Virus record (IMG/VR): IMGVR_UViG_3300014913_000003
Location: 1 to 39,592 of that record
From: a virus
Reading direction: 5' to 3' (one strand)
Length of the DNA stretch: 39,592 nucleotides
In this document: positions 1 through 39,592 of the stretch, one piece after another
Numbering within the stretch: the stretch's first letter is position 1
Layout: every line of letters begins with the position of its first letter
Made by a program: the position numbers and the translations under genes
Notes under the pieces: generated by a model
The model's input: only the letters and a program-made list of their open reading frames with translations
Told to the model about the DNA's origin: nothing
Databases searched by the model: none

Positions 1-123
1 AATATGGTGACTTCACCCAAGTTTCAGATGTTTTGACATACCAATCAGCAGACAAAGTGCTTATGGAAGCAGCAGAAATCTTGGGAGACCAAGCAGCAGA
101 TACTCTCGATGAATTAACACGAG
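1..123. repeat. Terminal/assembly overlap: 1-123 identical to 39470-39592, implying a circular or terminally redundant genome of 39469 bp
   Basis: Both ends compared base by base: 123/123 identical. Confidence 0.95.
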
Positions 124-1290: not shown

Positions 1291-1325
1291 GAAAACCAAA
1301 ACAACCGCAAAAATAAACTCTCTCG

Positions 1326-2988: not shown

Positions 2989-3024
2989 CACATTGATTCC
3001 AAAATTTAAACAACCGCAAATAAA

Positions 3025-3717
3025 ATGAAAGAAAATAAAATCGTTATCGGTATTCCAAACGGAAGTGGGCTAATCCCGCACGAAACAGTATCAGCACTAT
3101 TGCAGCTCAGAAAAACTTGTCCGACAATGTTCCAAACCGTCGTAAGACAGCGAACCGACAAGGCGCGCAATTATATCATAAAAATGGCACTAGAATCTGG
3201 GGCAACACACGTTCTGTTTGTAGATGATGACAATCCTCCACCGGTAGACACGATTGAAAAATTCTTAGAAGACGATAAAGACATTGTCTGTTCTCCAATC
3301 CCCACGAGAAACCCAAATAAGCACGGATTCCACGACCTCTGTATATTTAAAGCGGCAGAAGTGAAGGAGGGGGCTGGGAAGGGGATGAAGATGTATGAAA
3401 ATATAAACAAAATTGATTCTACGAAAGGACATCTGCAAAAAGTAGATGGATGCGGAATGGGATGCACGATGGTAAAGAGAGAAGTCTTGGAAAAGCTCTG
3501 GAAAAAATACGAAGGACAACCGTTTGAATACGGAGACACCACATACACCACAGACCCCAAAAAACTCAATGTACAACGACGAACCATGAGCGAAGACATG
3601 GAATTCATTGAAAGGGCGACAGAAGAAGGTTTTGAGGTTTGGTGTGACACGAGAGTAAGAGCTCCGCATATTGGCTCTCCGCGTATATTCCAATTTAATG
3701 ATTCATATATAGAATAA
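3025..3717 (+). CDS. Glycosyltransferase, GT2-like (230 aa)
   Basis: VLFVDDDNPPP (DxD motif), GCGMGCTMVKREVLEKL and SEDMEFIERATEEGFEVW are typical of family-2 glycosyltransferases. Confidence 0.6.
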   Translation: MKENKIVIGIPNGSGLIPHETVSALLQLRKTCPTMFQTVVRQRTDKARNYIIKMALESGATHVLFVDDDNPPPVDTIEKFLEDDKDIVCSPIPTRNPNKHGFHDLCIFKAAEVKEGAGKGMKMYENINKIDSTKGHLQKVDGCGMGCTMVKREVLEKLWKKYEGQPFEYGDTTYTTDPKKLNVQRRTMSEDMEFIERATEEGFEVWCDTRVRAPHIGSPRIFQFNDSYIE

Positions 3718-5530: not shown

Positions 5531-5983
5531 ATGCACGTTGAAAAAACACTCTCGGCAGCGACATCCGCAGTAGAATCCTTGTTAGTAAAACAACCGATAG
5601 CGAAGGCTATGACTGGCATGTTTGGATTCTTATTTGTTTCGTATCGTGCAGAGCTAATGTTGATTTGCGTGGTATTCCTTGTTGATTTAATAACTGGTGT
5701 AGCTGCGGCAATAAGGGCAGGGGAGTTCCAGAGTGCGAAATTTTTCAAAGGGTGTACAAAGCTGATTGTGTATGCAGTATTTATCTTGCTTGCGGTTGGG
5801 ACGGATTTCACGGTAAGTCATCACATCCTCGGAATGGATGTATCTACTCGTATATTTTTGTCAGTCACGTTTTCCTTTATAATTTTGACAGATGTTTTTT
5901 CCGTATTTGAAAACCTAGAAAAGCTGGGGTATTCAACTCCGAGAAAAACATTTAGAAAGATGGTTCTTAATCTCAAGAAATAA
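5531..5983 (+). CDS. Holin, Phage_holin_4_1-like (150 aa)
   Basis: FLVDLITGVAAAIRAGEFQSAKFFKGCTKL and DVFSVFENLEKLGYSTP match the TcdE / toxin-secretion holin family pattern; multiple TM segments. ATG 5531 follows the upstream stop. Confidence 0.75.
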   Translation: MHVEKTLSAATSAVESLLVKQPIAKAMTGMFGFLFVSYRAELMLICVVFLVDLITGVAAAIRAGEFQSAKFFKGCTKLIVYAVFILLAVGTDFTVSHHILGMDVSTRIFLSVTFSFIILTDVFSVFENLEKLGYSTPRKTFRKMVLNLKK

Positions 5984-7941: not shown

Positions 7942-9840
7942 ATGGCAAATACATATCGCGGTGGCGGCACAAACAAAACGGCAGGAACTATCAAAAAAGA
8001 TGTTCCGACCAGAACGGACTCGCAAAGCGTTCCAACACGCAAAAGCACGGTTCCTGTTCCGCAAACAGCGACAACAACCCCTGTGGGGGTAGACATGATG
8101 CCCGGGGCTATGCAGCCGGGGGCGGCGGGACAGCCACAGCTAAATCAGGGGGCTCCGTTAAAAGCTCCTCCGACTCGTGCGGTTCCCACTACAAACCAAA
8201 AGCAGCACGAACAGGCTCGCGTTGACTTTAGGGACACCGGGCGATTCTCTGACACAAAGGAGGTGGATGCTTTCTTGAATGGAGATGCGCAAGCTCTTGG
8301 GGCTCAGGCACAAGCACCGACAACGCTAGAGGGATTCAGCCAACAAATAACAGGGCTGCTCTCTCCGGCTTCTACAAAGCCAGAGTCTTTCAATTCATAT
8401 CAGAAATATTTGGATTTAAGAGATGAATATAAGGCAGGGGATTTAGATTCTCAGGCGGCAGAATTGGGTGCTCAAATACGAGAACTCGAAGACACAACGG
8501 CAGACCGAATCCGGCAGGAGGAGGGGAAGTCTATTGCGGTCGGAGTTCAGGCGGGACGTATTTCAGAAATAGAACAACAACAAAACCTTAGAAACAGAGA
8601 GCTCACAAGAACATTACAGGTCGTGAACGACCAAAGAACGATTGCGAACAATACCGTTTCACAAATTATGGGGTATGCGCAAACAGATTACAAAAACGCG
8701 CTTGACCTATGGAACACGGAATATAACCAAAACTTACAGGCCACACAGATGGCAATGACCGCACAGCGTGACCAGAAGGCCGAAGAGCGGTGGTTTTTGG
8801 AGTTCAATCAGGCGAAAGAAGAGCGAGAAGAAGATATACAGAGAGATGTGGCAAAAGACAAGGCTGCATCGGAAAGATTTCAGCAAGAGTTCGGGCTTTC
8901 AAAAGAGAGAATACAGCTACAAAAAGACGAACAAGCGGCAATTCAAACGCGATTTGAGTCCGGACAAGACCTAGATAGGCTCAAATTAAAGTCTCAGATG
9001 GACATGCAGAGGGCAACAAACGCTCTTTCTGCGGCAAGAATCGGGGCGGCAGAAAAACAAAACGCATTTAATCAGATGATGTCTGAGCGGAGTATGCAGC
9101 TAAAAGAGCAGTCTCAGTCTGTGGCAGCAATGCAAACCGCATTCAACCTTGCGCAAGACGGACAGCTCGGGACACCTGATAAGTGGACTGACGCACAAAT
9201 CGCAAACAACGGACAACTTGAAAATAAATTAGGGGTTCCACAGGGGACTCTCGCAAATCTTTCATTGAATAACCCGGGAGACACTTGGAAAACAACTGTT
9301 ACAGACCCTGTCACCGGAGAAATTTCAGCAGTTCTGATGGGGGCCGATGGTTCAGTAAAAACAGAATCTCTTTCAGATGGGGCAATCCCAAGGAATGTAC
9401 AAGAGGCTTCAAATGCTTACGCACAGGGAGACGATTTCATTCTTGTTGAGGCGATGTATGGCACAGATGCTGCGAACCGAGGAAGCGCGCTGTATAACAA
9501 AGAATTAGCACTTTCTGCCGCAGCCAGCCTACCGGAATATTCCTCGCTAAATTCTGCCGAGAAAGAAAAGTTCAACACAGAGATGGGGGCGTTGTATGAC
9601 GCAGAAATGGCGAAGCAACCGGCCTCAGACTCTTCGCAATTTTTACCGGGAGGGATTGGGGAGACGTTTTCTGTTGCGATGCAAAATCGACTTGACCCGA
9701 CATCACAAATTTCAGGAGGAATGGAGGAGCGGGCAGCACAATCAGGGCCGTCTGGTGCAGACACTTGGACGCGCCTTGGCTACACAAAGGCAATGTGGGA
9801 CTCTCTTTCCCCAGAAGAACAAGATTACTTAAAAAGCTAA
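7942..9840 (+). CDS. Coiled-coil, Gln-rich virion protein (632 aa); internal/ejection or tape-measure-like
   Basis: Long helical Q/E/K-rich stretches; precedes the giant protein. Confidence 0.55.
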   Translation: MANTYRGGGTNKTAGTIKKDVPTRTDSQSVPTRKSTVPVPQTATTTPVGVDMMPGAMQPGAAGQPQLNQGAPLKAPPTRAVPTTNQKQHEQARVDFRDTGRFSDTKEVDAFLNGDAQALGAQAQAPTTLEGFSQQITGLLSPASTKPESFNSYQKYLDLRDEYKAGDLDSQAAELGAQIRELEDTTADRIRQEEGKSIAVGVQAGRISEIEQQQNLRNRELTRTLQVVNDQRTIANNTVSQIMGYAQTDYKNALDLWNTEYNQNLQATQMAMTAQRDQKAEERWFLEFNQAKEEREEDIQRDVAKDKAASERFQQEFGLSKERIQLQKDEQAAIQTRFESGQDLDRLKLKSQMDMQRATNALSAARIGAAEKQNAFNQMMSERSMQLKEQSQSVAAMQTAFNLAQDGQLGTPDKWTDAQIANNGQLENKLGVPQGTLANLSLNNPGDTWKTTVTDPVTGEISAVLMGADGSVKTESLSDGAIPRNVQEASNAYAQGDDFILVEAMYGTDAANRGSALYNKELALSAAASLPEYSSLNSAEKEKFNTEMGALYDAEMAKQPASDSSQFLPGGIGETFSVAMQNRLDPTSQISGGMEERAAQSGPSGADTWTRLGYTKAMWDSLSPEEQDYLKS

Positions 9841-17210: not shown

Positions 17211-17435
17211 ATGGGAAAAATTGAAACATGGAGCGACAAACTGCTTCGTCACGCGATTAGCTTCGGAATAACATTTCTGTCAGCGGGGATTGCCGTGTTT
17301 GCTATTACGGCAGATGCTGCTCTTGCTAACGGAGAATCTATTTCCGCAGCACTATTAATGACCTCTGGTGCGGCTGGTGTGGTCGCAGGGGTTCGAGCGG
17401 TTCTAAAGATACTAAAAGAAATAACAATTTCTTGA
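17211..17435 (+). CDS. Small membrane protein with 2 predicted TM helices (74 aa)
   Basis: Hydrophobic segments ISFGITFLSAGIAVFAI and AALLMTSGAAGVVAGV. Confidence 0.5.
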   Translation: MGKIETWSDKLLRHAISFGITFLSAGIAVFAITADAALANGESISAALLMTSGAAGVVAGVRAVLKILKEITIS

Positions 17436-17505
17436 CTTTAGAAATGGTTTCTGCTACATTGCGGATGCCGAGTTTGTGTAAAACTCATTGCAAAAAAAGA
17501 CAGAG

Positions 17506-17533
17506 AACCCTCATTGCCGTGAGGGTTTTTTGT
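17506..17533 (+). terminator. Rho-independent terminator closing the late operon
   Basis: AACCCTCA / TGAGGGTT 8-bp stem, 6-nt loop, followed by TTTTTGT. Confidence 0.8.
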
Positions 17534-17679
17534 TAGCACCACAAAACACAGAGGAGCGTAATTACAATTGCGATTCCCCCCACTACATATAAAACGTCTT
17601 TCATACACAGAATGCTACCCTCGAACACAACGTCGTGGCAACTCTTTTCGTGACAAAAAGAATAATCTCGTATTTCCAT

Positions 17680-17741: not shown

Positions 17742-18509
17742 ATGACGGAAGTGCAGCTTTCGGAAACGAAGACGAGAATGGTTGACATCCCGGGGGCGGT
17801 GATGAATCAACGGCTCGTGTTGGCAGACAAGCTATTCAAGGCGAAATGCTTTGGGAGTGATGTTAAGAACGCAGAGCAAGCGTTTGTGAAGATTATGGCG
17901 GGGGCAGAAATGGGGATGGGTGCGATGGAGTCGATGAACTCGCTTTATATTGTGAATGGAAAAATCACGATTTGGGGGTCAGCATTGTCTCGAAAAATAA
18001 AAGAGGCGGGATGGAAAATTACATACGAAGAGGAGGGGGTAGAGAGCTGTAAGGCGACAATCAAAAAAGGGGATGATGTGTATTCATATGAAGCCACAAA
18101 AGCAGACATGATTGCTCTAAACTCACAAGCATACAAAAAGTCTCCAAAGGACAAATTAAAATGGCACGCTCTTTCTCGATTGGTTCGTTTCTACGTTCCA
18201 GAAATTATGGGAGGAAGTGTAAGCTACACACAGGAAGAATACGAAGATGTGAAGCCGCGGAAGAAAATGGTGGTAGAAGAATCAAAACCAGAAAAGAAAA
18301 TTCCCACAGCGGAAGAATTAATCAAGGGGCTGCAAAAAGCATCAAAAGAAACATTGGAAAAAACACGGCACGACCTTCCGAAATTCATGGATAATTATGA
18401 GACAGAAGAGTTGGACGCTATTTCAGATGCGATTAAGGAGCGAGAAGCGATGTTGTCTGCACCAGAAGCAGAATTACCATTAACCGCAAAAGAAAATGAC
18501 TCAAACTAA
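17742..18509 (+). CDS. Single-strand annealing protein, RecT-like (255 aa)
   Basis: AFVKIMAGAEMGMGAMESMNSLYIVNGKITIWGSALSRKIKEAGW resembles the RecT-family core; paired with a downstream PD-(D/E)XK exonuclease. The TTG-17568 extension was rejected because the promoter lies inside it. Confidence 0.5.
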   Translation: MTEVQLSETKTRMVDIPGAVMNQRLVLADKLFKAKCFGSDVKNAEQAFVKIMAGAEMGMGAMESMNSLYIVNGKITIWGSALSRKIKEAGWKITYEEEGVESCKATIKKGDDVYSYEATKADMIALNSQAYKKSPKDKLKWHALSRLVRFYVPEIMGGSVSYTQEEYEDVKPRKKMVVEESKPEKKIPTAEELIKGLQKASKETLEKTRHDLPKFMDNYETEELDAISDAIKEREAMLSAPEAELPLTAKENDSN

Positions 18510-19553: not shown

Positions 19554-19841
19554 ATGAAGAAATTACACATACTCGGCATCGGCATTTTGGCAATTCCTTT
19601 TGTTATACTGTCTGTATATGGGGCGAGCAAGGGGTACGAAGAGTTGAATTTAATAAGAGTTGAAAACGACTTTAACCATAAAAACAGCGCGGTTTTTGAA
19701 AAAAAGGAAGAAGTTAAGACGGCAATACAAAACGCTCAGGACGCATTTTGCTTTCTCGTAAAGACAAAAAAGGAATATGACCGAGTTATTTCTTCCGAGT
19801 CTCTCGGAAGGTTCGACAAAGAGTGTCTGGGTTTGCAGTAG
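19554..19841 (+). CDS. Hypothetical protein with N-terminal TM/signal segment (95 aa)
   Basis: MKKLHILGIGILAIPFVILSVYG. Confidence 0.5.
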   Translation: MKKLHILGIGILAIPFVILSVYGASKGYEELNLIRVENDFNHKNSAVFEKKEEVKTAIQNAQDAFCFLVKTKKEYDRVISSESLGRFDKECLGLQ

Positions 19842-20836: not shown

Positions 20837-20864
20837 TTGACTTTCGCGGAAAAATAAATATAAT
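20837..20864 (+). promoter_or_regulatory. Near-consensus sigma70-like promoter
   Basis: TTGACT, 16-nt spacer, TATAAT; followed by a leader of about 115 nt with an 8-bp hairpin (20886-20893 / 20931-20938). Confidence 0.6.
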
Positions 20865-20984: not shown

Positions 20985-21128
20985 ATGGACGTAAAAAGGG
21001 CAACGGCAACGTGGGAGGGTGGAAGCGAGGAATGTTATATCGTTTTCGACGAAAGCGAGAAAATGGTTGATATATTAGACCATTCCGACCTCTGTTACGC
21101 CATATCGCTTTTTAAAGACATAGGATAA
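20985..21128 (+). CDS. Small ORF (47 aa) carrying the GCAACGGCAACG box (RATAT) near its N-terminus
   Basis: ATG 20985; TAATG overlap with the next gene; shares the box with the 25.5-26.3 kb ORFs. Confidence 0.45.
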   Translation: MDVKRATATWEGGSEECYIVFDESEKMVDILDHSDLCYAISLFKDIG

Positions 21129-21823
21129 TGACTGAAACAAGCGGCTATCAATTATCTAGGGCGTGGTTTAACTTTGCTTTTGAGAATCCTGAAATAATAA
21201 GACCTATACATGGCATAATTTACCTTTTTGCAATAGAGCATTGCAATAGGCTTGGGTGGAAAGATAAATTTGGATTTCCGACAACCATGGCAATGGAAGC
21301 CGTTGGTGTTAAAAAATATCAAACATATATAAAAGCATTTAATTCCCTTGTGGATTGGGGGTTTATAAAACTTGTCCAAAAATCAAAAAATCAATACTCG
21401 GCAAACATAATAAACATAAAAAGTGCTCATACAAAAAAGGGCAAAGCATTGGACAAAGCATTTATAAAGCATGGGTCAAAGCAACTGGAAAGCATGGGCC
21501 AAAGCATGGGCCAAAGCAAGGACAGTATAGATAAACAAGTAAACAATAAACAACAAACAAAGGGCAAGCACCTTGATTATGTTTTTTTAACTCAAAAGGA
21601 ATATGAAAAATTGTTAGTTGATTTTGGTGAAGGGAAATTAAAGATGTGCATCGAGAAGTTAGACAATGCAATCCCAAATTCAAAAGCCGCTAAATCTTAC
21701 AAAGACCACAATCGAGTTTTAAGAGGATGGGTTTCTCGTTGGTTTGAAGACTTACCGAAATCAGAAAAACCCCGCAAATCACTTTTGGAAATGACAGACG
21801 AAGAAAGATTTAACGCTTGCTAG
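21128..21823 (+). CDS. Replication initiator / replisome-organiser-like protein (231 aa)
   Basis: Winged-helix-like N-terminus (IIYLFAIEHCNRLGWKDKFGFPTTMAMEAVGVKKYQTYIKAFNSLVDWGFI). Lies upstream of the DnaB-like helicase. Confidence 0.35.
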   Translation: MTETSGYQLSRAWFNFAFENPEIIRPIHGIIYLFAIEHCNRLGWKDKFGFPTTMAMEAVGVKKYQTYIKAFNSLVDWGFIKLVQKSKNQYSANIINIKSAHTKKGKALDKAFIKHGSKQLESMGQSMGQSKDSIDKQVNNKQQTKGKHLDYVFLTQKEYEKLLVDFGEGKLKMCIEKLDNAIPNSKAAKSYKDHNRVLRGWVSRWFEDLPKSEKPRKSLLEMTDEERFNAC

Positions 21824-23105: not shown

Positions 23106-23130
23106 AAAACGCTTAGAACGCATTTAAATC
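23106..23130 (+). promoter_or_regulatory. 25-nt conserved box, copy A: AAAACGCTTAGAACGCATTTAAATC
   Basis: 23/25 identical to 28156-28180; both copies are intergenic. Confidence 0.5.
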
Positions 23131-23745: not shown

Positions 23746-23919
23746 ATGAAACCAAAAGAAGACGATTCCGGCATAGAGAAGAACCCAGAAGACGCGAGCC
23801 TTGAAAAAACCATACAAAAGAGGTTAGACCACCTTTTTGCGCAAATAGACGCAGGGAAAGCGACTAGAGAAGAATTGTATGCGTTTTGCGAGTATCACAA
23901 TATTGATTTAATATATTAA
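23746..23919 (+). CDS. Hypothetical mini-protein (57 aa)
   Basis: Hand-translated ORF filling the gap before 23922. Confidence 0.4.
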   Translation: MKPKEDDSGIEKNPEDASLEKTIQKRLDHLFAQIDAGKATREELYAFCEYHNIDLIY

Positions 23920-23921
23920 TA

Positions 23922-24155
23922 ATGAAATGGAGACACAAGGACGGCGACATTGAGGACAACAACTATGTTCCATATAACTACGACAAAGAAAGCCAAATCA
24001 TAAGAGACAAGGCTATCCAAACAATTGATAAGAAAACAACGCCAGACCAGATAGGGTTGTATGTGGATAAGATGGTACAGGTAGACATGGCTAGAAGTTT
24101 TTGGAGCCATATAGATGACTTCGTGTCAGCGGTTAGAAGAATTCTTGATTTTTAA
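23922..24155 (+). CDS. Hypothetical protein (77 aa)
   Basis: ORF in the operon. Confidence 0.5.
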   Translation: MKWRHKDGDIEDNNYVPYNYDKESQIIRDKAIQTIDKKTTPDQIGLYVDKMVQVDMARSFWSHIDDFVSAVRRILDF

Positions 24156-24161
24156 AAAAAA

Positions 24162-24338
24162 ATGGAAATAAAATACAAAATACGGCCAACACATGTCCCG
24201 TATTGTGGGGATTGCAATGGGCGTATGGCGGGGGATGGGAGCGAGAAAATCCCATATTCGTGCGGTTGTGGTGTATGGGAGTTCTCACAGGGCTCGCTAG
24301 AGAAAGGGAAAATTGAGTATCACCTGAAAAATGAATAG
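24162..24338 (+). CDS. Zinc-ribbon mini-protein (58 aa)
   Basis: CGDC...16 residues...CGC. Confidence 0.45.
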   Translation: MEIKYKIRPTHVPYCGDCNGRMAGDGSEKIPYSCGCGVWEFSQGSLEKGKIEYHLKNE

Positions 24339-24882: not shown

Positions 24883-25252
24883 AATAATCCTAAAATACCC
24901 AATGCCCCCGAGCGTAAATGTTGCGTATGCGGGGACGAAGAGGCGCTACAAGTCCGACAAATACAAGCAATGGATTGGGGAGGCTTTGTATTGTGGGAAC
25001 AGGAAATATAAAATCACAGGCAACAACTGGCTAGAGATTTATATAAAATTTTTTACCCCGCTTTTTAACAAGGGAAACGGAGAGAAGAAAAAGTGGGACA
25101 TAGACAACCGCCTCAAAACATTGCTTGACTTCATCGACAGTCAAGTTGAGGGGCTAGACGACCACAGGTACAAGCGAATAATAGCCGAAAAGGTTGATTC
25201 CCCCAGAGGGGAGGTAGAAGTTATCATAAAAGAGATGAAGCACGTTGTCTAG
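24875..25252 (+). CDS. rusA: RusA-family Holliday junction resolvase (125 aa)
   Basis: YPMPPSVN, WDIDNRLKTLLDFI and GLDDHRY align with E. coli RusA PPSNN, DLDNLQKAAFDAL and LDDAQV. Confidence 0.75.
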   Translation: MNEIILKYPMPPSVNVAYAGTKRRYKSDKYKQWIGEALYCGNRKYKITGNNWLEIYIKFFTPLFNKGNGEKKKWDIDNRLKTLLDFIDSQVEGLDDHRYKRIIAEKVDSPRGEVEVIIKEMKHVV

Positions 25253-25373
25253 GATTTTTAAAAGAACTAGGAGGTTTTGAAAGCCTCCTTTTTTTTCGTC
25301 CAAAAACTTTCACGAACCAGAAATGTGTTGTCTAGGATTTTAACTTGTCATAGCGCATGTTGTCTAGGATTTT
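25244..25373 (+). repeat. Three direct copies of GTTGTCTAGGATTTT (25244-25258, 25327-25341, 25359-25373); candidate operator/iteron set
   Basis: Exact 15-mers. Copy 1 overlaps the rusA stop codon; copies 2 and 3 lie after the terminator. Confidence 0.85.
25269..25296 (+). terminator. Rho-independent terminator after rusA
   Basis: AGGAGG...CCTCCT stem followed by T8. Confidence 0.75.
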
Positions 25374-25468
25374 TAGGTAGAGGGATGAGGCAAAACTTTC
25401 CACGACTTTTCTTGTGCATACTTTTGCAAGGAATAGCGCGGGTTTTCACTCCATTACATGAAAAACTC

Positions 25469-25497
25469 TTGCTTTTTTTCCGTTTTGGGCGCATAAT
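25469..25497 (+). promoter_or_regulatory. Candidate sigma70-like promoter for the 25.5-27.8 kb operon
   Basis: TTGCTT, 17-nt spacer, CATAAT; about 80 nt upstream of ATG 25576. Confidence 0.4.
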
Positions 25498-25575: not shown

Positions 25576-25728
25576 ATGAGTACAATCATCAAAACGGCAA
25601 CGGCAAGCAGTCTATGGATTCATAGATTTGAAAAAGCAGAACAACGAGAACGGCAATTCTCACATGAAACATTTGAAACGCTTACAGAAAAGGGGCTAGA
25701 AATTCCTACCTATTTAGAGCTTGCATAA
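25576..25728 (+). CDS. Small ORF (50 aa) with N-terminal K-T-A-T-A (ACGGCAACGGCAA box at +18)
   Basis: Hand-translated; TAATG overlap with the next ORF. Confidence 0.5.
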   Translation: MSTIIKTATASSLWIHRFEKAEQRERQFSHETFETLTEKGLEIPTYLELA

Positions 25729-25847
25729 TGAATACAACAAAAACGGCGACGGCATTGAATTTAATAGCGCGAGTGGCTTTTATACTATTCGCAGGGTATC
25801 AGCTAATAAGCTACGCAGAAACTCACCTACTAACAATGGCACAATGA
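25728..25847 (+). CDS. Small membrane ORF (39 aa) with N-terminal K-T-A-T-A (ACGGCGACGGCA at +15)
   Basis: Hand-translated; hydrophobic LNLIARVAFILFAGYQLI. Preferred over the 72-aa TTG ORF in another frame. Confidence 0.4.
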   Translation: MNTTKTATALNLIARVAFILFAGYQLISYAETHLLTMAQ

Positions 25848-25939
25848 AAAAGAAATTCAGAAACACGCTAGATACAATTTTTATTTTCGGAGCAATTAGC
25901 TTTTACGTCTTTTTGTTCTTTTACCCACTTTTTAAATAA
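25844..25939 (+). CDS. Small membrane ORF (31 aa)
   Basis: ATGA overlap; IFIFGAISFYVFLFFYPLF. Confidence 0.35.
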   Translation: MKKKFRNTLDTIFIFGAISFYVFLFFYPLFK

Positions 25940-26097
25940 TGGAAAATCTTACACAAACGGCAACGGCAAGAATCGAAGGATTTAAAGAAAAAATCCACAT
26001 AGCACAATCGGCAAGTATATCAGAGGAAGTACGAGACGCAGTAGTAAAAGAGAACCAAAAAAAGATTGATTTAATTCTTTCTAACTCTAAAAACTAA
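25939..26097 (+). CDS. Small ORF (52 aa) with N-terminal Q-T-A-T-A (ACGGCAACGGCAA at +18)
   Basis: Hand-translated; TAATG overlap. Confidence 0.5.
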   Translation: MENLTQTATARIEGFKEKIHIAQSASISEEVRDAVVKENQKKIDLILSNSKN

Positions 26098-26102
26098 ACA
26101 CA

Positions 26103-26288
26103 ATGAGTGAATCATACAACATCATCAGAATGTACGAAGACGGCAGAAAAGCAAGGGTACAAAAAAGAGGGGTATCACTAAAGGAGGCGCGGAAATGGTG
26201 TAATAGGGAAGACACCTCAAGCAGTACACATCCAAAAGGGAAAAATGGCGTATCGTGCGAGTGGTTCGACGGTTACAAGCAAATTTAA
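26103..26288 (+). CDS. Hypothetical protein (61 aa)
   Basis: The pattern RKARVQKRGVSLKEARKWCNREDTSS...WFDGY resembles a small conserved phage protein family whose name I cannot give. Confidence 0.55.
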   Translation: MSESYNIIRMYEDGRKARVQKRGVSLKEARKWCNREDTSSSTHPKGKNGVSCEWFDGYKQI

Positions 26289-26300
26289 ACAATTACAAAA

Positions 26301-26576
26301 ATGAAAAAAATTACACAATCGGCAACGGCAACAATTCAGAACTTACATGCGGTAGAGGTTAAATATTTTGGTGCAACGGATACAAATGGCGCACGAATAA
26401 AAATAACGTCATACAGGTTTGAACAATCCTTTTACTTGCCGTTTGATTATTCTTTAAACGACCAATCAGAGGGGGCCATTAAGGAGCTACAAAAAAGAGG
26501 CTTTGAGTTTATAGGGAAGGCGGAGGGAAAAAATATAACACTTTTGCTTTCAACTACTTTTGAACCAATAAAATAA
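26301..26576 (+). CDS. Hypothetical protein (91 aa) with N-terminal Q-S-A-T-A (TCGGCAACGGCAA at +18)
   Basis: ORF track plus the shared box. Confidence 0.6.
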   Translation: MKKITQSATATIQNLHAVEVKYFGATDTNGARIKITSYRFEQSFYLPFDYSLNDQSEGAIKELQKRGFEFIGKAEGKNITLLLSTTFEPIK

Positions 26577-26595
26577 TTTCTAAAAAACTTTTACA

Positions 26596-27075
26596 ATGAA
26601 AATCAACGCAAAAACGGCTTACAGATTCGCAAAATTCGCAAAAGAACAGACACGGCCCATTCTAAGTACAATCTTAATCGAAAAAAATAGAATGGTTGCA
26701 ACGGATACATACAAACTATTGATAATCGAGAGCAAGGAAAAGAATGATGTAGGGGAAAAGGGCCAGCTCTTGAATTTGCCAGAGTTTATCAAAACATTTA
26801 AAGCAGTAGATAAAGACGTTGAAATAGAGACAATAGAGAACAAAACGGCAGGTTTTGGAAACTATCCTAACATTGACCAAATTATCCCGACAAAAGATTT
26901 TAACGTAGAAATTGAATTCGACGCAAAGCTATTGATTGAAGCCCTAGAGCCGTTTAAAAGCAAGCAATCGAATGACAGGGTAACGCTAAAGGTCACAAAA
27001 AACAAACCACTTGTATTATCCGCAGAACAGGGAACTGACAAAGTGACGGCTATTGTCATGCCCTTAAAATCTTAA
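26596..27075 (+). CDS. Sliding-clamp (DnaN)-like protein of only 159 aa
   Basis: RPILSTILIEKNRMVATDTYKLL (clamp motif L..vl......l.l.ATD), GNYPNIDQIIP (compare FPdY..viP) and C-terminal TAIVMPLKS (compare vvMPMRL). Confidence 0.5.
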   Translation: MKINAKTAYRFAKFAKEQTRPILSTILIEKNRMVATDTYKLLIIESKEKNDVGEKGQLLNLPEFIKTFKAVDKDVEIETIENKTAGFGNYPNIDQIIPTKDFNVEIEFDAKLLIEALEPFKSKQSNDRVTLKVTKNKPLVLSAEQGTDKVTAIVMPLKS

Positions 27076-27087
27076 TTAAAAATTACA

Positions 27088-27189
27088 ATGGAAGCAACTA
27101 CATGTACATCATGCGGAAAAGACGCGCCTACATTCCAAACCGAATATTGTGCGGAATGTATGCAGGAAGAAACCTTAAAAACCTTTTAA
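27088..27189 (+). CDS. Zinc-ribbon mini-protein (33 aa)
   Basis: CTSC...11 residues...CAEC. Confidence 0.35.
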   Translation: MEATTCTSCGKDAPTFQTEYCAECMQEETLKTF

Positions 27190-27190
27190 A

Positions 27191-27373
27191 ATGAAAGACT
27201 TACTACAATTTGCAGCAACGGCGCTTGTCGCGCTATTCTTCCTATTCCTTTCTCTTTATCTAAACAAGTTCTCGATACTTTATCGGATAGATGTAGAAAA
27301 TAGAGTATGCGCGGCGACTGAGTATCTAGATATCGCGCCAGACGGTAAGAACTGGACTTGTTCACCTATTTAA
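27191..27373 (+). CDS. Small membrane protein (60 aa)
   Basis: FAATALVALFFLFLSLYL. Confidence 0.5.
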   Translation: MKDLLQFAATALVALFFLFLSLYLNKFSILYRIDVENRVCAATEYLDIAPDGKNWTCSPI

Positions 27374-27383
27374 TAATACTACA

Positions 27384-27755
27384 ATGAATAAAAAATACTA
27401 CATCTCGGCACAACATGACGTATATTTGGATGATTACGAGAGGGGGGAGCTTGAAAATGTTAACGCATTTCAAATTGACCATTTCAGCGAAGAAGAAAAA
27501 GCCTTCGACGCGGTAAGAGATTACATGGAAAACGTGGTTTGTGTAGATGAATACACATACAAGGAATATGAAGGCGATAACCGCGAGGGGAATGACAAGT
27601 TTGAAATAGTGGCAAATGTTCTGGTGGATGAAAACAATTGTCCGGCAACGAAAGGAGATATTAAAGAATGGAAAGAGGGCAAAAGAAAATTGTACACAGT
27701 CCATATTTACATTGAGCTTTTCAAACTCACTCCAACGGCAAAGCTCTTTGTTTAA
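27384..27755 (+). CDS. Acidic hypothetical protein (123 aa)
   Basis: By hand count, 27 Asp/Glu against about 16 Lys/Arg; last gene before the terminator. Confidence 0.55.
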   Translation: MNKKYYISAQHDVYLDDYERGELENVNAFQIDHFSEEEKAFDAVRDYMENVVCVDEYTYKEYEGDNREGNDKFEIVANVLVDENNCPATKGDIKEWKEGKRKLYTVHIYIELFKLTPTAKLFV

Positions 27756-27780
27756 TAGTTACAAGAAAGAAAGACATAAA

Positions 27781-27811
27781 AGCCTCCTACATATCGCAGG
27801 GGGCTTTTTTA
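27781..27811 (+). terminator. Rho-independent terminator
   Basis: AGCCTCCT / AGGGGGCT 8-bp stem (one G-U pair), 9-nt loop, T6. Confidence 0.75.
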
Positions 27812-28155: not shown

Positions 28156-28180
28156 AAAACGCTTAGAACTGATTTAAATC
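28156..28180 (+). promoter_or_regulatory. 25-nt conserved box, copy B: AAAACGCTTAGAACTGATTTAAATC
   Basis: 23/25 identical to 23106-23130; contains the palindrome GATTTAAATC; lies upstream of terS. Confidence 0.5.
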
Positions 28181-28333
28181 AACTATTCTTTTTCAAAACA
28201 ATCTAAAATGCCCTAAATTATGCCTGAATACTCAATCATAGCCACACATCCACCAAAACAGAAAAAACAAATACTTGATTGGAAAACATATTTCATGCAT
28301 TCTAAGCGTGTTTCAGCACATAAACCACCCACC

Positions 28334-30193: not shown

Positions 30194-30266
30194 AGCGGAG
30201 TAGAGTATTGGTAACTCGCTGGACTCATAATCCGGAATAATGTCAGTTCAAATCTGTCCTTCGCAA
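30194..30266 (+). tRNA. tRNA-Met (anticodon CAT), with some initiator-like features
   Basis: Hand-folded. D arm GAGT-ATTGGTA-ACTC; anticodon arm CTGGA-CTCATAA-TCCGG; T arm GTCAG-TTCAAAT-CTGTC (one U-U mismatch). The acceptor has 6 bp plus an A-A mismatch at 1:72. The variable loop is 6 nt. Confidence 0.6.
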
Positions 30267-30519: not shown

Positions 30520-30969
30520 ATGAAGATTCTAGAAACGCATCCGGAGATAAAATCAAGAGAGGTCTTGTTGGGAGATTCTCAAAGACTCTTACAGTACGCC
30601 AAGGAAATGCACAAGCTCTGTTTTGAGCCGATTGGTATGTACCCGGGGGGTGAGGCGGTGGCACATGTGCAGGTCGCAGGAAAAGACCCGCTACGCTTCT
30701 TTGTGAAAAAAGATGGGACTATCTATATAAACCCGGTAATTACGAGCCAGAAACAGAAATATAAACACCGGGAGGGGTGTCTGTCGTTTGCGAATGAGTC
30801 TCCGGTTGAAGTAGAGAGATATAACTTGATAGAGGTCGAATTTGTTTTGGCGCATATAACGGCGAAACAAATAGTGACAGACGGTGGGCAGAAGGGGCGC
30901 TTCTCGGGGAAAGACGCTGCAATCTTTCAGCACGAGATAGAGCACTTTGATTTGGATTTAATTTATTAA
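30520..30969 (+). CDS. def: Peptide deformylase (149 aa)
   Basis: The three PDF motifs: GGEAVAHVQV (G.G.AA.Q-like), EGCLSF (EGCLS) and QHEIEHF (HE..H). Confidence 0.85.
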   Translation: MKILETHPEIKSREVLLGDSQRLLQYAKEMHKLCFEPIGMYPGGEAVAHVQVAGKDPLRFFVKKDGTIYINPVITSQKQKYKHREGCLSFANESPVEVERYNLIEVEFVLAHITAKQIVTDGGQKGRFSGKDAAIFQHEIEHFDLDLIY

Positions 30970-31329: not shown

Positions 31330-31539
31330 GTGGTTGGTATGGGGGGTGACCCACCTGATTCGTTCCAGAAAGGACACTAAAATCCTATAAAACTCTCCCA
31401 CTCAAAAATGACAATAGGTCTTTAGGACTGAGATACTGGCACAGGGAATCGGTATCGAAATCGGCATCGGCATTCTGTGATTAGGAATATTCAAAAACTT
31501 CACACGCATTAAAGATTCCCAAACCTTAAAAACCGCTAG

Positions 31540-31887: not shown

Positions 31888-32193
31888 ATGAAGAAACTAT
31901 CAGTCGGCATCGTGTTGTGTCTTTTTATTCTCCCATCATTCACCGTTGGTGCGTTTGGGCATAAAGGGGTTCGTTCTTTGAGCAGTGCAAAGACGGTAGA
32001 GGCCCCGAAGCTGGTTATTCGGGAGATTGCGCCAGTTATTAAGGAGGAGGCAAGGGTTATTCGACCAGTCGTGCGGAAGAAATATGTTCCAACCGTAAAA
32101 AGCAAGGCTGTTATTCTTAGCGAGATTCGCACTTTGTTGGCAGAAATAAAACGACTACAAAAAAAATTAGAAGACTTATTCAAACAATTGTAA
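31888..32193 (+). CDS. Secreted/membrane-anchored coiled-coil protein (101 aa); i-spanin-like architecture
   Basis: MKKLSVGIVLCLFILPSFTVGAFG followed by a helical C-terminus, LSEIRTLLAEIKRLQKKLEDLFKQL. TTGACA-17-TAGGGT (31853-31881) ends 6 nt before the ATG. Confidence 0.5.
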   Translation: MKKLSVGIVLCLFILPSFTVGAFGHKGVRSLSSAKTVEAPKLVIREIAPVIKEEARVIRPVVRKKYVPTVKSKAVILSEIRTLLAEIKRLQKKLEDLFKQL

Positions 32194-38355: not shown

Positions 38356-38470
38356 AGCTCGAAGACATAATTTCTGCGAATTATGTTTTCAAACCACAGT
38401 CAAATCCACCGGGGATTTACCGAGACTTTACCACCTTCGGGTGAGATATTTTTTAAAACCGCTTATTAAC

Positions 38471-39177: not shown

Positions 39178-39592
39178 ATGGCCAATGTATCAACTACATA
39201 CCCAGCATCGTTCCCCAACACATCTTCTGCGGGAACAATCCCACTAGAAGTAGCATCATTCTACGATGCAGTTCTATTGGAACGAGTAGTCTCAAATTTC
39301 GTTCATATGCGATGGGCGCAAATCCGAGACGTTCCTGCCAACTTCGGAACAGGAAACATTAAATTCCGACGATACGCAAACCTAAGTGCAGCGACAACAC
39401 CGCTCACGGAAGGTACAACCCCGGCTGGTAGCTCTCTGTCTGTTACTGATATTCAAGCGACAGTGAAACAATATGGTGACTTCACCCAAGTTTCAGATGT
39501 TTTGACATACCAATCAGCAGACAAAGTGCTTATGGAAGCAGCAGAAATCTTGGGAGACCAAGCAGCAGATACTCTCGATGAATTAACACGAG
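39178..39592 (+). CDS. Major capsid protein, N-terminal part; runs off the window end and continues at base 1 through the overlap
   Basis: ATG 39178 with no stop before the window end. Absent from the ORF track because it has no stop. In phase with 3..713. Confidence 0.8.
   Translation, partial: MANVSTTYPASFPNTSSAGTIPLEVASFYDAVLLERVVSNFVHMRWAQIRDVPANFGTGNIKFRRYANLSAATTPLTEGTTPAGSSLSVTDIQATVKQYGDFTQVSDVLTYQSADKVLMEAAEILGDQAADTLDELTR
39470..39592. repeat. Terminal/assembly overlap, second copy (identical to 1-123)
   Basis: Exact identity read directly. Confidence 0.95.

What the first reader, a model, noticed from the sequence alone, without database searches (positions are those of the whole stretch)
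25576..26331. ACGGCAACGGCA box (peptide T-A-T-A) at a fixed offset from the start codon of five unrelated small early ORFs
The box occurs as follows:

| ORF start | Box | Coordinates | Offset from ATG |
|---|---|---|---|
| 25576 | ACGGCAACGGCAA | 25594-25606 | +18 |
| 25728 | ACGGCGACGGCA | 25743-25754 | +15 |
| 25939 | ACGGCAACGGCAA | 25957-25969 | +18 |
| 26301 | TCGGCAACGGCAA | 26319-26331 | +18 |
| 20985 | GGCAACGGCAAC | 20999-21010 | in phase, ACG codon at +18 |

All copies are in the same codon phase, always reading ACG GCA. Downstream, the proteins share no similarity.

Synonymous positions are almost invariant, which argues for selection on the nucleic acid as well as, or instead of, the peptide. 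The shorter word AACGGCAA is also enriched across 25.5-27.8 kb.

Possible roles:
- a translational operator or downstream box recognised by a phage or host RNA-binding protein (analogous in logic to T4 RegA operators), in a genome without Shine-Dalgarno sites;
- a recombination linker that promotes shuffling of early-gene cassettes;
- an N-terminal peptide tag for targeting or processing.
Basis: seen in the sequence. Interest (0 to 1): 0.7.

Follow-up and report, generated by a model that had tools for sequence, protein, structure and literature searches.

The report
Start-proximal CGGCA element in phage genes
About a quarter of this phage's genes carry the short word CGGCA (often doubled) about 20 bases after the start codon, in any reading frame, so it looks like a signal on the messenger RNA rather than a protein tag; a small antisense RNA encoded elsewhere in the genome may be its partner.

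Summary
Five in-frame copies of (A)CGGCAACGGCA(A) lie 12-21 nt after the ATG of five small ORFs (5 found, 0.18 expected). The ORFs are alike only in their first 8-13 residues.

The box is the strongest, tandem form of a wider element. CGGC(A) is the most enriched 4-mer at +14..+30 of gene starts (22 observed, 2.8 expected). It stays on top without the five box genes (13 vs 2.6). It peaks at +19..+23 and is enriched in two reading frames (frame 2: 5 vs 0.18). It sits at 14 of 56 true starts against 22 of 742 other ATGs, mostly in the early region.

Gene 19554 has CGGCATCGGCA at +20 in another frame. This points to selection on the nucleic acid, tied to translation starts, and not to a T-A-T-A peptide.

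In the one box gene with homologues, the box lies in a lineage-specific N-terminal extension. Relatives (TerL 37-78% identical) lack the element, so the recognising factor is probably phage-specific.

The leading candidate is a promoter-plus-terminator unit of about 70 nt at 17465-17535. Its 5' end and hairpin loop are complementary to the two element variants. This partner is a lead, not shown.

Mechanism: inferred post-transcriptional control.

Closest analogues: the downstream box and mycobacteriophage start-associated sequences.

The parts
25594..25606 (+). Tandem element ACGGCAACGGCAA; CGGC at +19 and +25 of ORF 25576-25728 (50 aa), the first ORF after the regulatory intergenic region
25743..25754 (+). 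Tandem element ACGGCGACGGCA; CGGC at +16 and +22 of ORF 25728-25847 (39 aa, membrane-like)
25957..25969 (+). Tandem element ACGGCAACGGCAA at +18 of ORF 25939-26097 (52 aa), preceded by TTACACAAA, which is also complementary to the candidate sRNA
   Evidence: (D14)
26319..26331 (+). Tandem element TCGGCAACGGCAA at +18 of gene 26301-26576 (91 aa); lies in a 7-11-residue N-terminal extension that homologues lack
20998..21010 (+). Element GGGCAACGGCAAC; CGGC at +19 of ORF 20985-21128 (47 aa), the first gene after promoter-like site 20837-20864 and just upstream of the replication genes
19574..19584 (+). Tandem element CGGCATCGGCA at +20 of gene 19554-19841, in a different reading frame (L-G-I-G-I)
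26615..26619 (+). Single element CGGCT at +19 of the beta-clamp-like gene 26596-27075
27406..27410 (+). Single element (CT)CGGCA at +22 of gene 27384-27755
5553..5557 (+). Single element (CT)CGGCA at +22 of holin-like gene 5531-5983
7965..7969 (+). Single element CGGCA at +23 of gene 7942-9840 (frame 2), with a second ACGGCA at +36
23769..23773 (+). Single element CGGCA at +23 of gene 23746-23919 (frame 2)
23942..23945 (+). CGGC at +20 of gene 23922-24155 (frame 2)
24183..24186 (+). CGGC at +21 of ORF 24162-24338 (frame 0)
31905..31909 (+). Single element (GT)CGGCA at +17 of gene 31888-32193 (frame 2)
31462..31472 (+). Tandem CGGCATCGGCA in an intergenic region, inside a run of ATCGGN hexamers, 78 nt upstream of gene 31540. 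No ORF starts here, so the element can also occur outside coding sequence
17465..17535 (+). Candidate trans-acting small RNA of about 70 nt. Its 5' end AUGCCGAGUUUGUGUAA is complementary to CTCGGCAT-type elements and to TTACACAAA. It is followed by an A-rich linker and a terminator hairpin whose loop UUGCCG(U) is complementary to (A)CGGCAA
   Evidence: (I2); inferred, no expression data
17432..17460 (+). Sigma-70-like promoter TTGACT-17-TACATT (TG-extended) in front of the candidate sRNA. It shares the -35 word TTGACT with four other intergenic promoter-like sites
25469..25497 (+). Promoter-like TTGCTT-17-CATAAT for the small-ORF operon, read by eye from the sequence
   Evidence: inference
25269..25289 (+). 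Intrinsic terminator after the RusA gene; upstream boundary of the small-ORF operon
27780..27811 (+). Terminator-like hairpin plus T-run after gene 27384-27755; downstream boundary of the small-ORF operon (read from the sequence)

Best explanation
The ACGGCAACGGCA box is the tandem, strongest form of a phage-specific cis element with core CGGCA. The element lies on the sense strand 19-25 nt downstream of the start codon of about a quarter of the genes, mainly the early, replication and accessory genes.

It acts at the level of the mRNA and not the peptide. It sits just beyond the 3' edge of the G-poor initiation region and, going by the +15/+16 toeprint known from E. coli, just beyond the initiating ribosome. 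It most likely marks these messages as one post-transcriptional regulon, in which a trans-acting factor binds the element and changes initiation or mRNA stability.

The best candidate for that factor is a small RNA of about 70 nt made from 17465-17535. Its 5' end (AUGCCGAG-UUUGUGUAA) and terminator loop (UUGCCG) are complementary to the two element variants, CUCGGCAU and ACGGCAA.

Because these operons are tightly packed, lack Shine-Dalgarno sites and have no room for untranslated leaders, the element has to sit inside coding sequence. In at least one gene it is housed in an added N-terminal extension.

Shown: the element, its position, its frame independence, its restriction to this phage, and the complementarity. 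Inferred: RNA-level action, regulation, and the identity of the partner.
For: - The box is real and far above chance.
- Synonymous sites are fixed despite mixed codon usage.
- CGGC is the top-enriched 4-mer at +14..+30: 22 vs 2.83, p 5e-13. Without the five box genes it is 13 vs 2.58, p 3e-6.
- The peak is at +19..+23.
- Enrichment holds separately in frame 1 (11 vs 1.08) and frame 2 (5 vs 0.18, p 1e-6).
- True starts carry it 14/56 against 22/742 for other ATG trinucleotides (Fisher 1.6e-8). The early region has 11/26 against 3/30 elsewhere.
- With independent public gene calls the count is 9/36 against 1.06 expected.
- Tandem CGGCNNCGGC occurs 7 times, all on the + strand (0.45 expected), always with 6-nt spacing.
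- G is depleted from -20 to +17 at starts, and the element begins where G returns.
- No local hairpin forms around the boxes.
- In the 91-aa gene the box lies in an N-terminal extension absent from 150 homologues.
- Relatives lack the element, which fits a phage-encoded recogniser.
- The sRNA candidate has a promoter whose TTGACT -35 word also occurs at four other intergenic promoter-like sites. It has a strong terminator fold (-29.9 kcal/mol, z = -7).
- It is 25/30 complementary to the start region of gene 19554 (I2).
- It shares 7-mer complementarity with the start regions of 13 genes, placing it in the top 0.2% of + strand windows.
- The duplex energies of its 5' 17-mer are in the top 0.2% of all 17-mers, and 8 of its 10 best targets carry the element.
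Against: - There are no expression, ribosome-profiling or binding data.
- No close relatives exist, so conservation and covariation cannot be tested.
- The sRNA statistics are post hoc, and part of the signal is circular: any RNA containing UGCCG will match CGGCA-rich targets.
- The clustering of two TGCCG words is not significant genome-wide (3 pairs observed, about 1 expected).
- The hairpin may simply be the terminator of the late operon.
- Pairing at +19..+25 lies outside the classical five-codon window for blocking 30S binding, except in gene 19554.
- Gene starts were taken as the first ATG of each ORF, and at least one (63) is an internal Met of the head gene.
- Two of the frame-2 cases (19554, 31888) are signal-peptide-like N-termini that might be related to each other.
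Confidence: 0.5

Rival explanations
1. Intrinsic ribosome signal (a true 'downstream box'). CGGCA at about +20 is read directly by the host 30S subunit or 16S rRNA and helps start-site selection where there is no Shine-Dalgarno pairing. No phage factor is involved.
For: - The position matches the classical downstream-box window of +15..+26 (own knowledge of Sprengart et al. 1996).
- The genome lacks SD sites.
- The element is tied to true starts and not to other ATGs.
- It is independent of reading frame.
Against: - Only 25% of genes have it.
- 497 genes of related phages show no CGGC enrichment.
- It is skewed towards early genes.
- The rRNA base-pairing model of the downstream box was refuted in E. 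coli (own knowledge).
- The host and its rRNA are unknown.
Confidence: 0.15
2. Footprint of gene-start sharing or a recombination linker. A resident 5' gene segment (ATG plus about 10 codons) was reused or exchanged when new accessory genes were acquired. It may still promote cassette shuffling, and it has no regulatory role.
For: - Copies 3 and 4 are 85% identical over 39 nt, including the ATG (D14).
- The box is an N-terminal add-on to a widespread protein family.
- The phage encodes RecT-like, exonuclease, NinB and RusA proteins.
- The region upstream of the terminase gene differs greatly between relatives.
- Analogues exist: PeSLs in T4-type phages (PMC2839356) and the conserved capsid targeting sequence of the diverse T-even internal proteins (PMC3012670).
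Against: - The flanks of the box have diverged while the 10-12 nt core is nearly invariant. This means selection on the core, not recent copying.
- A 5-12 nt core is too short for homologous exchange.
- The same core occurs at the same distance in other frames, and in larger genes outside the small-ORF cluster.
- No relatives carrying the box were found to exchange with.
Confidence: 0.15
3. N-terminal peptide tag ([KQ]-[TS]-A-T-A) for proteolysis, targeting or packaging of small proteins. It would work like the T4 capsid targeting sequence or an N-terminal ClpX degron.
For: - The five boxes are always translated in the same frame, near the N-terminus.
- The box forms an extension ahead of a complete domain.
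- The T4 CTS is a precedent for a conserved leader on diverse proteins (PMC3012670).
Against: - Synonymous positions are fixed.
- The first residue varies (T, S, R) while the nucleotides are kept.
- The same nucleotide core recurs at the same distance, encoding L-G-I-G, S-G, D-G and R-P.
- A copy lies in non-coding DNA.
Confidence: 0.07
4. DNA-level sites for an asymmetric DNA-binding protein (stoperator-like repressor sites, or replication or packaging sites) that happen to lie in gene starts.
For: - All tandem copies are in one orientation.
- One copy is intergenic.
- Asymmetric 13-bp stoperators are a precedent in cluster A mycobacteriophages (cited in PMC3203893).
Against: - The position is locked to the start codon within about 6 nt. 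A DNA-binding protein has no reason to respect that.
- The origin iterons (21443-21519) and the operator-like repeats (25240-25375) have different sequences.
- No repressor or integrase was detected among the proteins scanned.
Confidence: 0.06

Closest known systems
Downstream box (DB) of T7, lambda and cold-shock mRNAs in E. coli
   Same: A short sense-strand element inside the coding sequence, about +15..+26 from the AUG, proposed to act in translation initiation independently of Shine-Dalgarno pairing.
   Different: The sequence is different. Here only a subset of genes of one phage carries it, often as a tandem with 6-nt spacing. The DB-rRNA pairing model was refuted in E. coli (own knowledge). 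The host rRNA is unknown here, and a phage-encoded partner looks more likely.
Start-associated sequences (SAS/ESAS) of cluster K mycobacteriophages (PMC3203893)
   Same: A short asymmetric repeat in one orientation, tied to the translation starts of a subset of mostly non-structural genes from different protein families. It is specific to the phage group. Its function is unknown, but a role in translation through a host or phage RNA or protein has been proposed.
   Different: SAS is a 13-bp GGGATAGGAGCCC located 3-8 bp upstream of the start and includes the SD core. The present element is CGGCA, lies downstream of the start inside the coding sequence, and occurs in a genome without SD sites.
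T4 RegA translational operators and RegB cleavage sites
   Same: A phage-encoded factor acts on many early mRNAs through a short motif in the initiation region, giving temporal shut-off.
   Different: RegA sites are AU-rich and overlap the AUG. RegB cuts GGAG within the SD. No RegA or RegB homologue was detected here.
Trans-acting base-pairing small RNAs (5' seed, Rho-independent terminator)
   Same: The candidate at 17465-17535 has its own promoter-like site, a 5' single-stranded seed, an A-rich linker, a terminator with a U-tail, and 7-16 nt of complementarity to several targets near their start codons.
   Different: The targets lie at +19..+25, mostly outside the five-codon window. One anti-element is in the terminator loop. 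There is no evidence of expression, no conservation, and no match above the gathering score in Rfam.
T4 capsid targeting sequence of internal proteins; PeSL cassettes of T4-type phages (PMC3012670, PMC2839356)
   Same: A short conserved 5' module shared by otherwise unrelated small accessory genes in a variable genome region.
   Different: The CTS works as a peptide, and PeSLs are intergenic promoter plus stem-loop units. Here the core is independent of reading frame, lies inside coding sequence, and carries no promoter or hairpin.

Membership tests
Downstream box | Sense-strand element within about +15..+26 of the start codon | tested here: met
   CGGC peaks at +19..+23; tandem forms span +19..+30.
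Downstream box | Complementarity to 16S rRNA (nt 1469-1483 in E. coli) or a direct effect on 30S binding | not testable with these tools
   The host and its rRNA are unknown, and there is no biochemical assay.
Downstream box | General signal used by the host translation apparatus | tested here: not met
   Only 14 of 56 genes carry it, and it is absent from 497 genes of related phages.
Mycobacteriophage SAS | 13-bp GGGATAGGAGCCC located 3-8 bp upstream of the start codon, containing the SD core | tested here: not met
   The sequence is different and lies downstream of the ATG. The genome has no SD sites (PMC3203893).
Mycobacteriophage SAS | Asymmetric, in one orientation, tied to the starts of a subset of mainly non-structural genes of unrelated families | tested here: met
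   All tandem copies are on the + strand. Counts are 11/26 early-region genes against 3/30 elsewhere. The proteins are unrelated.
T4 RegA-type translational operator | Presence of a RegA-like repressor protein | tested here: not met
   No Pfam, PHROG or NCBIfam match to RegA among the proteins scanned. Many small proteins remain unassigned.
T4 RegA-type translational operator | Operator overlaps the AUG/initiation region and binding blocks initiation | tested here: inconclusive
   The element lies 4-10 nt beyond the expected ribosome toeprint (+15/+16). Binding was not tested.
N-terminal peptide tag (T4 CTS-like) | Conservation at the peptide level, independent of codon choice | tested here: not met
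   Codons are fixed. The same nucleotides encode unrelated dipeptides in other frames at the same distance.
PeSL / recombination linker | Intergenic promoter plus stem-loop flanking the cassettes, with homology long enough for exchange | tested here: not met
   The box is intragenic and has no hairpin. The conserved block is only about 19 nt.
Trans-acting base-pairing sRNA (candidate at 17465-17535) | Own promoter and Rho-independent terminator with no ORF in between | tested here: met
   TTGACT-17-TACATT lies at 17432-17460. The hairpin at 17506-17527 plus T-run folds at -29.9 kcal/mol, z = -7. The only ATG (17444) lies upstream of the predicted transcription start. These are consensus and fold predictions only.
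Trans-acting base-pairing sRNA (candidate at 17465-17535) | Seed complementarity to several targets beyond chance | tested here: inconclusive
   It ranks in the top 0.2% of + strand windows and 17-mers. The test is post hoc and partly circular, and TGCCG clustering is not significant.
Trans-acting base-pairing sRNA (candidate at 17465-17535) | Expression, and conservation or covariation with its targets | not testable with these tools
   No transcript data are available and no relatives carry the region.

The most novel reading that the evidence does not exclude
A virulent phage of a host that does not use Shine-Dalgarno sites runs a genome-wide antisense regulon. One phage-encoded small RNA of about 70 nt (or the 3' end of the late transcript) carries two anti-CGGCA sequences. 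It pairs with a dedicated downstream element placed about 20 nt after the start codon of about a quarter of the genes. Some proteins have acquired N-terminal extensions only to house the RNA site.
Probability: 0.22. Interest if true: 0.8.

Novelty: new variant of a known kind. Interest (0 to 1): 0.62.

Why it matters
How start sites are chosen and regulated in bacteria and phages that do not use Shine-Dalgarno pairing is poorly understood. Phage-wide 'start-associated' repeats have been described (cluster K mycobacteriophages) but never explained.

This case offers a compact, testable system. The element is a 5-nt core at a fixed distance downstream of the AUG, independent of reading frame and strongest in early accessory genes. 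There is a concrete candidate partner RNA in the same 39-kb genome.

If the pairing is real, it would show that phages can organise temporal control of many genes through one small RNA and coding-sequence operators. It would also show that short N-terminal extensions in phage ORFans can be regulatory RNA scaffolds and not protein features. That would matter for gene annotation and for recoding phage genes in synthetic biology.

Tried and rejected
Searches for relatives:
- No near-identical DNA in GenBank phages.
- Helicase, RusA and clamp-like proteins found no relatives in IMG/VR.
- The 91-aa and 159-aa proteins have no homologues by the word-indexed search.
- Other public contigs carrying the 91-aa protein are identical to the window over the stretches compared.

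TerL relatives:
- TerL relatives exist (up to 78% identity).
- They share almost no early genes with this phage.
- They show no start-proximal repeat and no CGGC enrichment.

Pattern scans:
- The 15-mer in IMG/VR and the 19-mer ACACAANCGGCAACGGCAA in metagenomes and genomes returned only single chance hits, many of them in N-T-T-G-N-G-N repeat proteins.
- The terminator-hairpin pattern found only generic bidirectional terminators with A/T-rich loops.

Other checks:
- Rfam gives only the tRNA above threshold, and sub-threshold terminator-like hits for the sRNA region.
- There is no hairpin or conserved fold around the boxes.
- No PDB, Pfam, NCBIfam or PADLOC assignment for the box ORFs.
- Raw RNAduplex of the whole sRNA against initiation regions, and unfiltered 7-mer complementarity, were dominated by U-run/A-run pairing and were discarded.

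Ideas considered and rejected:
- Origin iterons and operator repeats have different sequences.
- Sigma-54, Chi, DGR, integron attC and Hfq ARN motifs do not fit the sequence or the position.
- A Bacteroidota-type promoter motif (TAnnTTTG) is not enriched.
Full report
**Context**

The window is a complete, circularly closed phage genome of about 39.47 kb; bases 1-123 repeat at 39470-39592. All genes are on the + strand. It has an SU10-type portal, a large terminase, a head gene that runs across the window ends, and virion structural genes.

The early block contains:
- a RecT-like protein, a PDDEXK exonuclease and NinB;
- an O-like replication protein with internal iterons;
- a DnaB-like helicase and RusA.

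Only 1 of 56 genes has a Shine-Dalgarno core. Start regions are A-rich and depleted of G from -20 to +17.

The same contig is found in ENA and Logan assemblies, with no sequence differences over the stretches compared. The closest GenBank phage has 33% TerL identity. The closest IMG/VR contig has 78% TerL identity but shares almost nothing else with the early region.

- ACGGCAACGGCA with up to 1 mismatch gives 5 hits against 0.18 expected.
- GGCAACGGCA occurs exactly 4 times.
- Thr is ACG in only 25% of codons and Ala is GCA in only 40%. Even so, 19 of 20 box codons use the consensus third base.
- An alignment shows a conserved block of about 19 nt, ACAMAANSGGCRACGGCAW, with unrelated flanks.
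- BLASTP finds similarity between the five ORFs only in residues 1-13.

Four of the boxes lie in a tightly packed operon of about ten small genes (25576-27755). Its genes have overlapping stop and start codons. The operon is bounded by terminators at 25269-25289 and about 27780-27811. It is preceded by an intergenic region with three 21-nt repeats and a promoter-like site. The fifth box is in the first ORF after the promoter-like site at 20837-20864.

**The box is translated, as an add-on**

The 91-aa box protein belongs to a widespread family of proteins of about 80-85 residues: 365 representatives at E <= 0.001. Homologues begin 1-5 residues before a conserved N-[LFY]-H motif. The window protein has 12 residues there (MKKITQSATATIQ), and none of the 150 best-scoring homologues has a [TS]A[TS]A motif. 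No alternative start codon exists between the ATG and the conserved domain. The box therefore lies in a lineage-specific N-terminal extension of a real gene.

**The key new result: the box is the peak of a wider element that does not depend on reading frame**

A position-specific count showed C at +22 and G at +24 in about half of all genes. Follow-up gave these results.

| Test | Observed | Expected or control |
|---|---|---|
| CGGC at +14..+30, all genes (top 4-mer) | 22 | 2.83 (p 5e-13) |
| Same, without the five box genes (still top) | 13 | 2.58 (p 3e-6) |
| CGGC at +17..+25, frame 1 | 11 | 1.08 |
| CGGC at +17..+25, frame 2 | 5 | 0.18 (p 1.4e-6) |
| True starts carrying it | 14/56 | 22/742 other ATGs (Fisher 1.6e-8) |
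| Public pipeline gene calls | 9/36 | 1.06 |
| Early region (17.7-27.8 kb) against the rest | 11/26 | 3/30 (p 0.012) |
| Tandem CGGCNNCGGC, all on the + strand | 7 | 0.45 |

- Occurrences pile up at +19..+23.
- The frame-2 cases encode L-G, S-G, D-G, V-G and G-G, which have nothing in common with T-A.
- Gene 19554 has a tandem CGGCATCGGCA at +20 with the same 6-nt spacing as the box, but it reads L-G-I-G-I.
- Of the seven tandem copies, five are at gene starts, one is internal to a gene, and one is in a non-coding run of ATCGGN hexamers at 31444-31472.

A peptide tag cannot explain this pattern. An element read on the nucleic acid at a set distance from the start codon can. The lock to the start codon argues for RNA and translation rather than DNA binding.

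**The element is specific to this phage**

Pooled relatives (497 predicted genes; TerL 37-78% identical) show no CGGC enrichment at +17..+27 and no start-proximal repeat of their own. This argues against a general host ribosome signal and for a recogniser encoded by the phage. The relatives may, however, infect different hosts.

**A candidate partner**

The only strong lead is in the non-coding stretch after the last late gene.

- A promoter-like site, CTTGACTTT-17-TACATT (17432-17460, TG-extended), uses the same -35 word (TTGACT) as four other intergenic promoter-like sites (17680, 20837, 29319, 32802). TTGACT is intergenic in 5 of 11 cases, although only 13% of the genome is intergenic.
- About 40 nt downstream of the predicted start lies a strong terminator, AACCCTCA-TTGCCG-TGAGGGTT plus a T-run. 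The predicted 72-nt RNA folds at -29.9 kcal/mol, z = -7.
- The loop UUGCCG(U) is the exact complement of (A)CGGCAA, the class of element found in 20985, 25576, 25939 and 26301.
- The predicted 5' end AUGCCGAG is the complement of CUCGGCAU, the class found in 19554, 27384, 5531 and 31888.
- The next bases, UUUGUGUAA, complement the TTACACA(A/T)A that precedes the element in 19554, 25939 and 26301 (I2, 78, 89).

In quantitative terms:
- the 71-nt window has G+C-containing 7-mer complements in the start regions of 13 genes, which puts it in the top 0.2% of + strand windows;
- its 5' 17-mer ranks in the top 0.2% of all 17-mers for summed duplex energy with start regions, with -23.6 kcal/mol for 19554 and -17.5/-17.4 for 26301/25939.

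Caveats:
- These tests were made after the lead was noticed, and they are partly circular.
- The clustering of two TGCCG words is not unusual genome-wide.
- The hairpin could simply terminate the late operon, although that would still place the anti-elements in a late 3' UTR.
- Rfam has no family match above threshold for the region.
- No relative carries it.

I put the probability that this RNA is the partner at about one in four.

**Mechanism: best reading**

Shown:
- a sense-strand CGGCA element, often tandem, 19-25 nt after the AUG of a subset of genes;
- its independence of reading frame and its restriction to this phage;
- its location where G returns after the G-poor initiation zone, with no local hairpin around the boxes; going by the +15/+16 toeprint known from E. 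coli, this is just beyond the initiating ribosome;
- its placement in an added N-terminal extension in at least one gene.

Inferred:
- it is a post-transcriptional operator that groups early and accessory messages into one regulon;
- a trans factor bound there (the sRNA, or an unidentified RNA-binding protein or nuclease) would abut the initiating ribosome, or trigger decay, and so set the timing or level of expression.

The packed, SD-less operons leave no leader sequence for such a site. That explains why the site sits in coding sequence, and why its frame is locked once it has been inserted.

**Rivals**

- A direct ribosome signal (a true downstream box) fits the position, but not the subset of genes or the absence from relatives.
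- Gene-start sharing or a recombination linker fits the 39-nt similarity of copies 3 and 4, the N-terminal add-on, and the RecT/NinB/RusA toolkit. It does not fit the near-invariant short core with diverged flanks, or the out-of-frame copies. It may be how the tandem form spread.
- A peptide tag and DNA operators are each unlikely, for the reasons given above.

**Comparison with known systems**

- In position the element resembles the E. coli/T7 downstream box.
- In genomic behaviour it resembles the start-associated sequences of cluster K mycobacteriophages: asymmetric, in one orientation, at the starts of mainly non-structural genes of unrelated families, specific to the phage group, and of unknown function (PMC3203893). 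Those lie upstream of the start and contain the SD core.
- It is not a member of either family by sequence.
- It shares the logic of T4 RegA/RegB control but no detectable protein homologue.
- The T4 capsid targeting sequence (PMC3012670) and PeSL cassettes (PMC2839356) are analogues for a shared 5' module on diverse accessory genes. They work as a peptide and as intergenic promoter-terminator units, respectively.

I class this as a new variant of a known kind: a start-associated regulatory repeat.

**Verdict**

The element is broader than five ORFs, and the T-A-T-A peptide is a by-product. The partner and the direction of regulation remain untested. Interest is moderate to high, because the system is small and sharply defined, and it comes with an explicit, falsifiable partner RNA.

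Noticed in passing
window 1-123 and 39470-39592: Identical 123-nt ends show that the contig is a closed, complete genome of about 39.47 kb. The major head gene runs across the window ends, so the 'ORF' at 63-713 is only its C-terminal part.
   Followed up: partly
window 21443-21519: Four iteron-like copies of AAAGCATGGGYCAAAGCA lie inside the O-like replication gene (21128-21823). This is a likely origin of replication, arranged as in lambda.
   Followed up: no
window 25240-25375: Three copies of a 21-nt repeat, GCAYGTTGTCTAGGATTTTTA (at 25240, 25323 and 25355), flank the terminator after the RusA gene and lie upstream of the small-ORF operon. They look like operators for a DNA-binding regulator.
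   Followed up: no
window 23106-23130, 28156-28180 (weaker copy at 19729-19753): A 25-nt repeat, AAAACGCTTAGAAC..ATTTAAATC (92% identical), lies in two intergenic regions upstream of genes 23213 and 28220. An inverted partial copy is at 28295-28314. It may be a promoter or regulatory site of a different class.
   Followed up: no
window 1292-1316, 3001-3025, 18463-18492, 31525-31539, 38455-38470: The word AACCGCAAA (or AAACCGC) lies 5-20 nt upstream of the ATG of several, mostly late, genes. This is a second start-associated word, this time upstream of the start.
   Followed up: no
window 17432, 17680, 20837, 29319, 32802 (and 25469): Canonical sigma-70-like promoters (TTGACT-16/17-TAnnAT) sit in intergenic regions of a genome without Shine-Dalgarno sites. 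This combination is not typical of Bacteroidota. TerL homologues are found on contigs of about 38-40 kb binned in Patescibacteria/Parcubacteria MAGs. The host is unresolved.
   Followed up: partly
window 30194-30266 and 30520-30969: A tRNA-Met (CAT anticodon) has an A1:A72 mismatch at the top of the acceptor stem and two of the three G-C pairs typical of initiator tRNAs in the anticodon stem. It lies next to a phage-encoded peptide deformylase gene. The phage seems to invest in translation initiation.
   Followed up: partly
window 31444-31472: A non-coding run of hexamers, ATCGGT ATCGAA ATCGGC ATCGGC, ends in a tandem CGGCATCGGCA. It lies 78 nt upstream of gene 31540, and 16 of 18 bases are identical to the start-proximal site of gene 19554.
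   Followed up: partly
window 26596-27075: A 159-aa single-domain protein resembles the C-terminal domain of the DnaN beta-clamp. It matches PHROGs annotated as DNA polymerase and as DNA polymerase processivity factor, and TIGR00663 weakly. It sits inside the small-ORF operon.
   Followed up: partly
gene starts, +14..+30: ACATC/CATC is also enriched just after start codons: ACATC in 6 genes against 0.56 expected (five box genes excluded). It sometimes lies directly before the CGGCA element (27384). It may be an extension of the element or a second one.
   Followed up: no
L147 6620-6886; L148 7821-8259: Related phages carry Tad2-like and Acb2/Tad1-like anti-defence genes in the variable region upstream of the terminase gene. 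This suggests that the corresponding small-ORF region of this phage is also an accessory or counter-defence locus.
   Followed up: no
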